A stretch of 20,847 nucleotides of DNA from an uncultured Deinococcales bacterium. GTDB taxonomy: Bacteria > Deinococcota > Deinococci > Deinococcales > JAAFIG01. The DNA is taken from contig CAXTKV010000082.1 in the NCBI GenBank assembly GCA_964244895.1, positions 1-20,847 of the forward strand. Direction: 5' to 3'. This document shows, in pieces, positions 17,957 to 20,847 of the stretch. The notes below the pieces were generated by a model. That model was not told the DNA's origin, searched no databases, and saw only the letters and a program-made list of their open reading frames with translations. Both the position numbers and the translations under genes were made by a program. Every line of letters starts with the position of its first letter. Position 1 is the first letter of the stretch.

Positions 17957-19102
17957 ATGAGTCAACCCACCATCCCGCAGGTAGCCACCACGGGCGCTGT
18001 CCGCATCGAGGCGGTCACGGACCGCGCGAAGCTCAAACGTTTCATCGAGTACCCGTACCAGAAATACCGCAATCACCCCGTCTGGGTTCCACCGCTGCTG
18101 ATTCAGGAGTGGGAGACTTTCAACCGCGACAAGAACCCGGCCTTCGACGACGCCGACGTGGACCTGTTCCTGGCGCTCTCTGGCGATACGGTCGTGGGTC
18201 GCATCGCGGCGCTCGAGAACCGGCGTTTCAACCAGGCAATCGATGAGCGTTCGGCGCTTTTTGGGTACTTCGAGGCCGAAAATCCCGAGATCGCTCGGGC
18301 GCTCCTCGAAACCGTCGAGGGCTGGGGCCGCCAGCGCGGCATTCACCTGGTGCGCGGCCCGTTCCCGGTTTCGCTAAACGATCTCGAGGGCTTGCTGATC
18401 GAGAATTTCGACGATCCGCCGACGATTTTGATGGCCTACAACCCGCCCGAGTACAAGGGGTTCATCGAATCAGCGGGCTACACCAAATCGATGGACACCT
18501 TCGCCTGGCGGATGTACTCCAAAGATGGCCTGCCGGAACGCGTCAGTCGCATCGCCGAGCGCGTCAAACGGAACCTCAACGTCGTCGTGCGCGAACTCGA
18601 TTGGAAGAAACTCGATCAGGAAGTGCCGTTGATCCTGAACATCTACAACCGCGCCTGGGCGGACAACTGGGGCTTCATTCCGGTCACGCCGCGCGAAGCC
18701 ATGCAGATCAAAGATTCCTTGAAAACCGTCGCGGATCGCAAGACGACCCTGATCGCGGAAGTCAACTCTCAGGCCGCCGGGTTCACGATCATGCTGCCGG
18801 ACATCAATCAGCTTTTGCGCGGCACCGGTGGGCGGCTCTTTCCGCTGGGCTTGCCGAAACTCTTGCTCGGCAAGCCCAAACGCTCGCGGTTGTACGCCCT
18901 GGGTATCCTGCCCGAGTTTCGCGGCAAGGGTCTGGACGCCCTCTTGTACGCCGAATCGTTCCATCGCGGCATCGCGCGGTACAACGCGGGCGAGTTCGGC
19001 ATCACGCTGGAATCCAACGAGGCGATCAACACGGGCATGCGGGCGCTCGGGGCCGAGCCGTACAAGCGCTACCGCATCTTCGAGAAGAAGCTCGAGGGCT
19101 GA
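17957..19102 (+). CDS. Tandem-GNAT N-acyltransferase, YghO / bacterial ceramide synthase-like family
   Basis: N-terminal LKRFI..P...Y...P.WVPPL, KNP.F, VVGRIAA, FGYFE, YNPPEY, AWADNWGF.P, LPDIN, the acyl-CoA motif LGILPEFRGKG and C-terminal YKRYRIFEK. Family recognised by eye. Confidence 0.78.
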   Translation: MSQPTIPQVATTGAVRIEAVTDRAKLKRFIEYPYQKYRNHPVWVPPLLIQEWETFNRDKNPAFDDADVDLFLALSGDTVVGRIAALENRRFNQAIDERSALFGYFEAENPEIARALLETVEGWGRQRGIHLVRGPFPVSLNDLEGLLIENFDDPPTILMAYNPPEYKGFIESAGYTKSMDTFAWRMYSKDGLPERVSRIAERVKRNLNVVVRELDWKKLDQEVPLILNIYNRAWADNWGFIPVTPREAMQIKDSLKTVADRKTTLIAEVNSQAAGFTIMLPDINQLLRGTGGRLFPLGLPKLLLGKPKRSRLYALGILPEFRGKGLDALLYAESFHRGIARYNAGEFGITLESNEAINTGMRALGAEPYKRYRIFEKKLEG

Positions 19103-19126
19103 AGCTCAGTCCGGGGATGCACGAGC

Positions 19127-19170
19127 ACACCGTCCGGCGCACGAATACGGATATGCGCGCTGGACGGCGT
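19127..19170. repeat. Family A copy 12
   Basis: acaccgtccggcgcac-gaatacggatat-gcgcgctggacggcgt. Confidence 0.88.
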
Positions 19171-19244
19171 TCCTGGAAAATACCCGATGCTCGAGAATGC
19201 GTGTACTAAACGCAGAATCTCGAAGAATCGATATTGCACGAGCA

Positions 19245-19286
19245 CACCGTCCGGCACGCGAGCTTGAGCTCGCGTGCCGGACGGTG
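19245..19286. repeat. Family A copy 13, perfect 20-bp arms with 2-nt centre
   Basis: caccgtccggcacgcgagct-tg-agctcgcgtgccggacggtg. Confidence 0.95.
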
Positions 19287-19296
19287 CCAATTCAGT

Positions 19297-20508
19297 TCAG
19301 AGCTTCGCTGGCTCGGGAATCTCCCGGCTGGTCAGCGCATCGTTGACGCGCGCGGGCAACGCGAGCGTCACGAGAAACCCGGCCACCAACGCCACGCCCA
19401 GCGCCAGCAGCGGCGCGTAAGGCCCGCCGATCAGCGCCTGCAGCACCAGCACCAGCACCAACCCGCCCGCGTTGCCCGCCAGCATTAAGAAGCCGACTGC
19501 CGCGCCCTGCCGCCCCACGCCGACGTGCCGATCCGACCAGTCGAGCACCACCGGCAGCGTCGAAAGAATAAAAAAGCCCGCCAGCCCCAGCGTCGCGCCC
19601 AACCAGATCGAATCGTGGCGCACCGCCAACGCCACCAGCGCCGCCCCGGCCACGATCAGTGCGACCAGCAGCATCTCGCGCCGCCGATCCCTGGCCGCGA
19701 TCACGGGCGGCAGAATGGCCGAACCGACGATCCCGCCGAAGGTCATCACGCCCAACAGGTTGCCGCTTTCAACGCTGCCCACGCCGAAGAACTTCAAAAT
19801 CGCTTCGAGCCAGGTGCTGAGCGCGATGAAAAAGCCGAAGCCGATGAACAACAAGCCCGCGAGCTTCCACATCAAAGGATCGCGCCGCAGCCAGCCGAGG
19901 CTCAGATCCTCCGAGGTCTCGAGCGCGTCCGCTCTGGCGGGCACGCGCAGGCTCAGGATCACCCACGCGGCGGCGATCGCGGCGGGGATGGCCTGAATCG
20001 CGAAGACCAACCTCAACCCGCCCGCGTTGAACAGGGCTGGCCCGCTGAAGGTGGCGAGCAGAATGCCGATGAAGATGCTGGCGCTGCCAATCGAGATCGC
20101 GGTCGCTTGCTCTTCTCTCGGGAAGTGCATCGCGGCCAGCTTGGTGAGCGCGTTCAGCACCAAGGGTTGCCCGATGGCGACGATCGCCTGCGCCGCGAAC
20201 TGCAAGCCGAAATTGGTCGGGTCGATCAGCCGCAGCAACCCTCCCAGCGCCGTCGCGACCGCACCCGCCCCGAGCGCCCAGGGGAAGCGCCGATCCAGCC
20301 AGCGACCCGTCGGCAGGGCCAGCACGATGTACACGAATTGAAAAATGGCGGAAAGCCAACCGATGTTCTCGACGCTGGTGTGAAGCACCGTGGCGCTCTC
20401 GTTGGTGATCGGCGCGAAGGTGATCCACAAAAGTTGCGTGCTCGCCACCAAGAGCGCGTACCCGGCCAGCACCACCCAGCGTTGACTCGAGGCTGAAGGG
20501 TTCCTCAC
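19297..20508 (-). CDS. MFS transporter, SLC49 (FLVCR/MFSD7/DIRC2)-like
   Basis: About 12 hydrophobic helices, with WITFAPI, IGWLS..F..VY and AIGQPLVLNALTKLAAMHFPREEQATA. The GTG overlaps the upstream SDR stop (GTGA). Confidence 0.85.
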   Translation of the reverse strand: MRNPSASSQRWVVLAGYALLVASTQLLWITFAPITNESATVLHTSVENIGWLSAIFQFVYIVLALPTGRWLDRRFPWALGAGAVATALGGLLRLIDPTNFGLQFAAQAIVAIGQPLVLNALTKLAAMHFPREEQATAISIGSASIFIGILLATFSGPALFNAGGLRLVFAIQAIPAAIAAAWVILSLRVPARADALETSEDLSLGWLRRDPLMWKLAGLLFIGFGFFIALSTWLEAILKFFGVGSVESGNLLGVMTFGGIVGSAILPPVIAARDRRREMLLVALIVAGAALVALAVRHDSIWLGATLGLAGFFILSTLPVVLDWSDRHVGVGRQGAAVGFLMLAGNAGGLVLVLVLQALIGGPYAPLLALGVALVAGFLVTLALPARVNDALTSREIPEPAKL

Positions 20509-20847
20509 GGCTCGAGTCCCCGCTCCTTGCGGGCCTTCTTGACCGCGCCGTCGAAGCTGCCCGTCAAAATCGGCTCGATCAGCCCGCCGACCCGAGCCAG
20601 AAGCGCCGTCTGCGCGTCGGCGGTGATGCTGCGCCTGCGCCCAGCGATGCCCGAGACGATCGCGCTCGCCATTTTCTGCGCGCTGATCGGTTTGATCGCG
20701 CCCGCGATGTGCTTGGTTTCCAGCGGTTTGAACTGGTTTTCAAACGCCAGTTGCGGCGTGTCCGTGTCCGGCGGGTACGCGATGCTGACGGCGATGTTGT
20801 ACGGCTGCAACTCCTGACGCAGCGCCTCCATCAAACCGCGCACCGCG
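20505..20847 (-). CDS. Short-chain dehydrogenase/reductase, 3-ketodihydrosphingosine reductase (KDSR/Tsc10)-like, 5'-truncated by window edge
   Basis: [44 protein letters not shown] carries the YPPDTDTP..E...KP.ET segment typical of KDSR-like SDRs. The frame stays open to the window end. Confidence 0.78.
   Translation of the reverse strand, partial: [113 protein letters not shown]

What the first reader, a model, noticed from the sequence alone, without database searches (positions are those of the whole stretch)
17957..20847. Candidate sphingolipid/ceramide-type lipid module: bCerS-like GNAT facing a KDSR-like reductase and an SLC49-like transporter
Seen: the SDR fragment has [42 protein letters not shown], and the 381-aa GNAT has WVPPL, KNP.F, GRIAA, NWGF.P and LPDIN. 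Established: YPPDTDTP..E...KP.ET typifies eukaryotic 3-ketodihydrosphingosine reductase (KDSR/FVT1). Bacterial ceramide synthase (bCerS) is a tandem-GNAT protein of the YghO-like family, and the described bacterial route is Spt, then bCerS, then CerR. Inference: a reductase of the eukaryotic type next to a bacterial-type N-acyltransferase suggests a hybrid long-chain-base pathway in a probable Deinococcota member, a group not known to me to make sphingolipids but known for amide-linked alkylamine glycolipids. Caveats: the genes converge rather than share an operon, only the SDR C-terminus is visible, and no serine palmitoyltransferase is in the window.
Basis: partly seen in the sequence, partly recalled or inferred. 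Interest (0 to 1): 0.75.

Follow-up and report, generated by a model that had tools for sequence, protein, structure and literature searches.

The report
Ceramide pathway genes in Deinococcota lineage
This gene likely encodes the ceramide-building enzyme of a sphingolipid pathway predicted for two families of the Deinococcus group, where I found no report of such lipids, while the reductase of the animal and fungal type beside it is a rare, likely borrowed extra rather than a fixed partner.

Summary
The three genes and quoted motifs are real. The 381-aa GNAT is a full-length YghO/bCerS-type protein (32% to E. coli BL21 YghO; tandem-GNAT model). The genome holds an Spt-like enzyme (contig C25) and a CerR-like reductase (C121), so a bacterial-type ceramide set is present but scattered. 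Among 364 Deinococcota genomes the GNAT occurs in 125 and the Spt-like gene in 116, 115 together, confined to this family, a probable Trueperaceae sister family and one further genome. In the sister family spt sits directly upstream of the GNAT in 92 of 97. Neither occurs in the 216 genomes of the other three families, so the alkylamine link fails. The KDSR-like SDR is whole (its first half ends contig C212, no spt upstream) but was found in only 2 of 364 genomes and groups with Herpetosiphon-type proteins. The FLVCR-like transporter occurs in 8 of 364, in no other Spt carrier. The three-gene 'module' is not conserved. Bacterial KDSR homologues are published, and the scan noted bCerS+KDSR operons before in spirochaetes (unchecked). 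Verdict: known pathway in a new lineage, with a local KDSR-like add-on; no activity shown.

The parts
17957..19102 (+). YghO/bCerS-type tandem GNAT, likely ceramide synthase (long-chain-base N-acyltransferase); family-wide
   Evidence: 32% identity over 376 aa to E. coli BL21 YghO, E 4e-69; only YghO hit in the genome; model pLDDT 93, top Foldseek hits tandem GNATs; 18 of 18 family relatives
19118..19286 (.). Spacer with short palindromic repeats found throughout this genome (REP-like); separates the converging genes
   Evidence: 277 blastn hits of the 194-bp spacer in the genome at E<=1e-3; one terminator-like site found against 1.9 expected by chance
19297..20508 (-). FLVCR/SLC49-like MFS transporter, start overlapping the SDR stop; sporadic in the phylum
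   Evidence: Pfam MFS_1; 5 of 5 PDB hits FLVCR1/2, best E 1.2e-10; 8 of 364 genomes, none other in the two Spt-bearing families
20505..20847 (-). C-terminal 113 aa of a 273-aa KDSR-like classical SDR; N-half on contig C212:7963-8460
   Evidence: Tsc10 8jat best single-domain PDB match; relatives named 3-dehydrosphinganine reductase by JGI/NCBI; 19-nt contig overlap; 2 of 364 genomes

Best explanation
The GNAT is likely the ceramide synthase of a family-wide bacterial sphingolipid pathway whose Spt-like and CerR-like partners lie on other contigs, and the KDSR-like reductase next door is likely a later, borrowed addition that would reduce free 3-ketosphinganine. Inferred steps: the C25 enzyme condenses serine with a fatty acyl thioester to 3-ketosphinganine; the GNAT adds the N-acyl chain; the C121 extended SDR reduces the 3-keto group, as proposed for Caulobacter. 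In this one lineage the KDSR-like SDR would give a second, reduce-first branch or mop up free keto base in the cytoplasm. The MFS is probably a passenger. Shown: sequences, homologies, distribution and gene order. Not shown: any activity, substrate or lipid.
For: GNAT: reciprocal sole hit of E. coli BL21 YghO, which PMC9386255 lists as the aca homologue of Caulobacter CC_1154. Spt-like C25:1918-3141: best of 13 NCBIfam models is serine palmitoyltransferase CFB (427 bits; next non-Spt 351); best PDB match Spt 3a2b, 350 bits against 283 for BioF/Kbl and 242 for cysteate acyltransferase; groups with E. coli Spt at 98/95 and shares its GTFSKS motif. Co-occurrence: 115 genomes with both, 10 GNAT only, 1 Spt only, 238 neither; spt directly upstream of the GNAT in 92 of 97 sister-family genomes. 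CerR-like C121:14679-15710: 18 of 19 family genomes; its orthologue follows the GNAT directly in G001; its only 2 hits among 128 sister-family genomes at E<=1e-35 are the third gene of spt-GNAT-reductase runs; it is the best genome hit of the reductase in the Rubrobacter radiotolerans plasmid AOS-GNAT-reductase run. KDSR-like gene: rare, sister to Herpetosiphon/Herpetosiphonaceae proteins (SH-aLRT 97; names).
Against: The Spt-like protein is under the curated cut-off (427 < 640 bits). C121 matches E. coli CerR only at 26%, E 1.8e-19, level with two other extended SDRs and short of the 1e-30 threshold used in PMC11334938; its grouping with the operon reductases is 90/77, unstarred. In the own family spt and the GNAT are adjacent in 0 of 18 genomes. 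The only bCerS reference was E. coli YghO; Caulobacter and Bacteroides sequences were not compared. The KDSR profile prefers Tsc10 over clavaldehyde dehydrogenase by under 1 bit (163.5 vs 162.6) and Foldseek did not list Tsc10 among the shown rows. The Truepera radiovictrix genome paper mentions glycolipids, phospholipids and diols, no sphingolipid, though it calls the mixture uncharacterised (passages). Genomes are related, so the co-occurrence counts are not independent.
Confidence: 0.62

Rival explanations
1. Functional hybrid module: in this lineage the KDSR-like SDR is the working reductase, the GNAT acylates sphinganine in the eukaryotic order, the MFS moves the base or a head group, and the genes were selected to sit together.
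For: The genome's single KDSR-like gene ends 1.4 kb from the GNAT; by uniform chance 0.05-0.35% depending on window and target count (post hoc). Both phylum genomes with a KDSR-like hit carry spt and the GNAT. Earlier unchecked scan notes describe spt-bCerS-KDSR operons in spirochaetes.
Against: Convergent, so not co-transcribed; KDSR-like gene in 0 of 18 family relatives; CerR-like gene retained; GNAT neighbours differ among the genera examined; the MFS's 7 phylum relatives lie in Spt-free genomes without a KDSR-like gene; upstream of the SDR lie a MerR-like ORF and carotenoid genes, no spt.
Confidence: 0.18
2. The SDR-MFS pair has nothing to do with sphingolipids: a small uptake-and-oxidoreduction unit for another amino-alcohol or ketone that landed beside the GNAT by chance.
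For: Overlapping SDR stop and MFS start. KDSR-like relatives examined sit in mixed contexts: 2 of 3 plasmid loci beside PKS and AOS genes, 1 of 3 alone, and none of 5 metagenome loci matched spt, GNAT or MFS queries. Fold matches are generic SDRs. No neutral ceramidase found, but that search rang in no control.
Against: Tsc10 is the only significant PDB match of the family-specific C-terminal part; sources name many relatives 3-dehydrosphinganine reductase (automatic names); the host has a predicted source of 3-ketosphinganine.
Confidence: 0.3
3. The AOS-GNAT-reductase set makes a ceramide analogue from another amino acid (sulfonolipid, 1-deoxy or other aminolipid) rather than serine-based ceramide.
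For: The AOS is below every Spt cut-off; PMC11334938 notes Spt can use alanine and proposes lysine.
Against: Cysteate acyltransferase 28eh scores 242 bits against 350 for Spt; tree placement with E. coli Spt.
Confidence: 0.15
4. The GNAT makes the amide of the Deinococcus/Thermus glyceroyl-alkylamine glycolipids.
For: Both are amide-linked lipids of this phylum (recalled; only two reference titles seen).
Against: GNAT not found at E<=1e-30 in 0 of 125, 0 of 68 and 0 of 23 genomes of the other three families, which by size and rank are taken to hold Deinococcus and Thermus (inference).
Confidence: 0.03

Closest known systems
Bacterial ceramide pathway Spt-bCerS-CerR (Caulobacter; E. coli BL21 spt, yghO, epi cluster)
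   Same: YghO-type GNAT at 32%, Spt-like AOS at 36%, extended-SDR reductase; spt-GNAT-reductase order in the sister family
   Different: Spt closer to the Bacteroidota model than the proteobacterial ones; no close AcpR or LptFG-paralogue hit with the E. coli queries; genes scattered in this family; an extra KDSR-like SDR in this lineage; phylum Deinococcota
Eukaryotic KDSR / Tsc10 / FVT1 (PDB 8jat)
   Same: TGGSSGIG, S142-Y155-K159 and the C-terminal P..DTP..E...KP segment
   Different: 273 aa, no clear transmembrane segment (best 19-residue hydropathy 1.49); no tree with eukaryotic sequences was made; activity unknown
Bacterial KDSR-type reductases: PfSgaC of Pseudomonas fluorescens MYb115 (PMC12134224), BT_0972 (PMC9278070), 3-ketocapnine reductases (PMC11211663)
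   Same: Bacterial SDRs proposed or shown to reduce 3-keto long-chain bases; relatives at 40-45% lie after PKS and AOS genes in Sinorhizobium and Shinella
   Different: Here no PKS or AOS beside it; it faces a bCerS-type GNAT and is coupled to an FLVCR-like MFS. No sequence comparison with PfSgaC or BT_0972 themselves was made
FLVCR1/2 (SLC49) choline/ethanolamine transporters
   Same: Only PDB matches of the MFS
   Different: Low similarity (E 1e-10); substrate untested; relatives occur in Spt-free Deinococcota

Membership tests
bCerS / YghO / Aca | Full-length homology to a recognised member (E<=1e-30, >=50% cover, threshold of PMC11334938) | tested here: met
   E 4e-69 over 376 aa to E. coli BL21 YghO; one reference only
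   Predicted model; top ten Foldseek rows are two-domain GNATs, TM about 0.6
bCerS / YghO / Aca | Co-occurrence or clustering with spt | tested here: met
   115 of 125 GNAT genomes have the Spt-like gene; adjacent in 92 of 97 sister-family, 0 of 18 own-family genomes
bCerS / YghO / Aca | Tree placement with the tested Caulobacter and Bacteroides enzymes | not tested
   Those sequences were not obtained
bCerS / YghO / Aca | N-acylation of a long-chain base | not testable with these tools
   Needs assay
KDSR / Tsc10 | Classical SDR cofactor motif and S-Y-K triad | tested here: met
   TGGSSGIG, S142, Y155, K159, invariant or nearly so in 60 aligned relatives
KDSR / Tsc10 | KDSR is the nearest characterised enzyme | tested here: inconclusive
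   Best single-domain match by sequence, margin under 1 bit by profile, not singled out by fold
KDSR / Tsc10 | Membrane anchor as in eukaryotic KDSR (PMC11087976 calls these intrinsic membrane proteins) | tested here: not met
   No strong hydrophobic segment; crude hydropathy scan only
KDSR / Tsc10 | Reduces 3-ketosphinganine with NADPH | not testable with these tools
   Needs assay
Serine palmitoyltransferase (partner on C25) | NCBIfam equivalog cut-off | tested here: not met
   NF047600 427 bits, cut-off 640
Serine palmitoyltransferase (partner on C25) | Groups with Spt rather than Kbl/BioF/PKS-linked AOS | tested here: met
   98/95 with E. coli Spt, which is a long branch; best PDB match 3a2b
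CerR (partner on C121) | E<=1e-30 to a known CerR | tested here: not met
   E 1.8e-19 to E. coli BL21 epi; sister-family operon relatives reach 1e-27 to 1e-30
CerR (partner on C121) | Extended SDR whose relatives fill the reductase slot after spt-bcerS | tested here: met
   G001, G265, G266 and the Rubrobacter plasmid
SLC49 / FLVCR | Nearest solved relatives are FLVCR1/2 | tested here: met
   5 of 5 PDB hits; under the TIGR00903 cut-off
Conserved KDSR-bCerS-MFS module | Linkage kept beyond close strains | tested here: not met

The most novel reading that the evidence does not exclude
Two whole families of Deinococcota make glycosphingolipids, and this lineage runs both proposed reaction orders in one cell: acylate-then-reduce with a CerR-like enzyme and reduce-then-acylate with a KDSR gained from a Herpetosiphon-like donor and kept beside its ceramide synthase. 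That would be a natural test case for the disputed order of bacterial ceramide synthesis.
Probability: 0.2. Interest if true: 0.68.

Novelty: new member of a known kind. Interest (0 to 1): 0.44.

Why it matters
Deinococcota are not among the sphingolipid producers in the papers I could read. A ceramide gene set in about a third of the phylum's genomes searched (115 of 364), often followed by a glycosyltransferase and a flippase-domain gene in the probable Trueperaceae, predicts unrecognised glycosphingolipids in the envelope of this group. It can be tested in cultured Trueperaceae or in Rubrobacter radiotolerans, whose plasmid has the same three-gene run. A genome with both reductase types also offers enzymes to test whether bCerS accepts a reduced base, the point on which two models differ (PMC11087976). 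The pathway itself is known, so the gain is range and a test system, not new chemistry.

Tried and rejected
Spt upstream of the SDR: not there; C212 carries a MerR-like ORF and carotenoid genes. KDSR replacing a lost CerR: first suggested because the commoner sister-family reductase has no close own-family orthologue (3 of 19 with weak hits), rejected once C121 was found. C38 extended SDR as CerR: OleD-like, in a FabH/F390-synthetase cluster. The search for related loci for the GNAT returned 7 distant Bacteroidales/Bacteriovoracaceae loci; the 4 examined showed no spt or CerR-like neighbour by eye, and the 2 of those genomes scanned had no over-cut-off Spt. KDSR fragment in 101 genomes of G368's phylum: 0 hits, no positive control. 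Ceramidase: no hit and no control rang; the 2 PF00282 hits match decarboxylase models. Composition gives no sign of recent transfer (GC3 0.84-0.88 against 0.79-0.85 for 4 neighbours; the fusA2 row was out of frame and is ignored). Sequencing runs: no RNA holder listed; no listed contig bridges GNAT and MFS, and one 10,974-base contig runs past the window end. A read-level check of the C82-C212 join is lacking. Scan look-ups by sequence were empty. Foldseek on the SDR was uninformative.
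Full report
Observation. The window is all of contig C82 of a 5.1-Mb, 328-contig genome, 91% complete. After a haem-synthesis run ending in hemL-like 16.5-17.8 kb come the GNAT (17957-19102, +), an MFS (19297-20508, -) and an SDR fragment (20505-20847, -). All quoted motifs are present. The SDR's first 166 residues end contig C212, which overlaps C82 by 19 nt found only at those two places; P0001 is a 273-aa form, identical over the fragment and 96% over the rest. 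Upstream of the SDR lie a MerR-like ORF (my reading; no NCBIfam hit) and carotenoid genes, not spt. Close GNAT relatives are named Deinococcales, Deinococcota and Trueperaceae bacterium, which places the genome in Deinococcota. I take sister family f2 to be Trueperaceae because the protein so named has the identity (45%) of the f2 hits; this is inference.

The GNAT. It aligns over 376 of 381 residues with E. coli BL21 YghO (32%, E 4e-69) and is YghO's only hit in the genome. PMC9386255 (passages) lists YghO as the homologue of Caulobacter CC_1154, the acyltransferase needed for dihydroceramide. The model (pLDDT 93) matches tandem GNATs. No Pfam or NCBIfam model specific to bCerS responded.

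Partners. Of 15 PF00155 hits (10 translated) one is an alpha-oxoamine synthase, C25:1918-3141. Its best NCBIfam model is Bacteroidota-type Spt, under the cut-off (427 of 640 bits); its best PDB match is Spt 3a2b; in a 25-row tree it groups with E. coli Spt (98/95, a long branch) apart from Kbl-, BioF- and PKS-linked enzymes. An extended SDR, C121:14679-15710, next to a flippase-domain gene, is found in 18 of 19 family genomes (the miss is 57% complete). Its orthologue follows the GNAT in G001; its only 2 hits among 128 f2 genomes at E<=1e-35 stand third in spt-GNAT-reductase runs; it is the best hit of the third gene of the same run on a Rubrobacter radiotolerans plasmid. Its match to E. coli CerR is weak (26%, E 1.8e-19, tied with another SDR); in the tree it lies on E. 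coli CerR's side of a 95/87 split, with two unrelated own SDRs. It is a CerR by position more than by score.

Distribution. In 364 phylum genomes the GNAT scores E<=1e-30 in 125 (own genome; f1 18 of 18; f2 105 of 128; f6 1 of 1; f3 0 of 125, f4 0 of 23, f5 0 of 68) and the Spt-like gene E<=1e-110 in 116. 115 have both, 10 only the GNAT, 1 only Spt; spt lies directly upstream of the GNAT in 92 of 97 f2 and 0 of 18 f1 genomes. One of the 115 and of the 92, G327, is unpublished; no conclusion depends on it. In 10 f2 loci read, 7 continue with a CPBP-family membrane protein and a second reductase type, 2 with the C121-like type, and 1 has that type on the other strand nearby; 8 of 10 have a diglucosyl-diacylglycerol-synthase-like glycosyltransferase and 8 of 10 a flippase-domain gene close by (families). 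That points to glycosylated ceramides (inference). That glycosyltransferase had no hit in the own genome. These genomes are kin, many incomplete, so counts are descriptive.

The KDSR-like SDR and the MFS. The SDR has the classical motif and S-Y-K triad. Tsc10 is the best single-domain PDB match, but only narrowly by profile and not by fold. Such proteins are common in bacteria: 374 hits, many automatically named 3-dehydrosphinganine reductase. In the phylum the C-terminal part hits 2 of 364 genomes, the second a fragment at a contig end; full-length P0001 adds only 2 generic SDR hits among 40 relatives. In a 36-row tree (26 of the 120 listed hits, 6 locus proteins, 4 generic SDRs; no eukaryotes) its clade is sister to Herpetosiphon-type proteins (97). 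Gain by transfer is the simplest reading, but direction was not tested and codon composition is host-like. The MFS resembles FLVCR1/2 and occurs in 8 of 364 genomes; the other 7 lack Spt and the KDSR-like gene. Against a pure accident: the SDR ends 1,403 bases from the GNAT, a 0.05-0.35% event under uniform insertion, computed after the fact.

Mechanism. Most likely serine plus acyl thioester gives 3-ketosphinganine (C25), the GNAT N-acylates it and C121 reduces it; the KDSR-like enzyme would add a reduce-first branch in this lineage. All steps are inferred from homology and gene order.

Literature. PMC11087976 (first quarter and passages) sets out the two competing reaction orders. PMC11334938 (passages and section 20) extends Spt-like genes to 40 phyla; its main text has no 'deinococ' and its supplement could not be read, so Deinococcota may be listed there. 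Stankeviciute et al. 2022 is not held and is known to me only through citing papers. PMC12134224 (passages) proposes a bacterial KDSR homologue, PfSgaC; PMC9278070 and PMC11211663 (passages) show bacterial SDRs reducing keto long-chain bases. PMC3072082 (passages) reports uncharacterised glycolipids and phospholipids in Truepera. Searches pairing Deinococcota, Deinococcus-Thermus, Truepera or Rubrobacter with sphingolipid terms gave 0 papers or no listed title on the subject among the 20 shown each; subscription journals are mostly outside this library. Alkylamine glycolipids of Deinococcus and Thermus are recalled, not read. Two earlier scan notes describe spt-bCerS-KDSR operons in spirochaetes; I did not check them.

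Verdict. Real genes, correct family calls, a predicted ceramide pathway new for this phylum as far as I could search, and a KDSR-like add-on whose tie to the pathway is plausible but not conserved. New member of a known kind; interest 0.44.

Noticed in passing
G000:C140:117-878; 41 relatives: LpxC over the Pfam cut-off in this genome and in 25 of 41 genomes (f1 16 of 18, f2 5 of 6, f3 0 of 6, f4 1 of 5, f5 2 of 5), while the D. radiodurans and T. thermophilus controls do not ring; LpxB only a weak hit in the own genome. Suggests a partial or divergent lipid A-like route in part of the phylum.
   Followed up: partly
L161:7743-11110 (NZ_CP007515.1, Rubrobacter radiotolerans plasmid 1): AOS-GNAT-reductase run followed by an LTA-synthase-family gene; its AOS nests among f2 sequences (98/96) and is 58% identical to the own Spt-like protein, hinting at transfer between these groups.
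   Followed up: partly
L042-L045, L144-L149 (f2 genomes): Two different extended-SDR types fill the reductase slot of the spt-GNAT operon, and a CPBP (CAAX-protease-like) membrane protein sits between GNAT and reductase in 7 of 10 loci; role unknown.
   Followed up: partly
window 19103-19296, 16371-16416 and genome-wide: Short palindromic intergenic repeat family, 277 blastn hits for one spacer; REP-like, no partner transposase sought.
   Followed up: no
window 7978-17832: Compact haem cluster by my reading of the translations (hemF, hemY/G, hemH, hemE, hemB, hemC, hemA, divergent hemL); not scanned against families.
   Followed up: no
L033:1245-5778 (G000:C212): Carotenoid tailoring genes (CrtI/CrtD-like, CruG/HpnB-like glycosyltransferase, CruF-like hydratase) about 2 kb upstream of the KDSR-like SDR.
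   Followed up: no
L126:1-7807, L127:1-7813: KDSR-like SDR after a type I PKS and an AOS, next to capsule genes, in Sinorhizobium meliloti and Shinella; same layout as the Pseudomonas PKS sphingolipid cluster.
   Followed up: no
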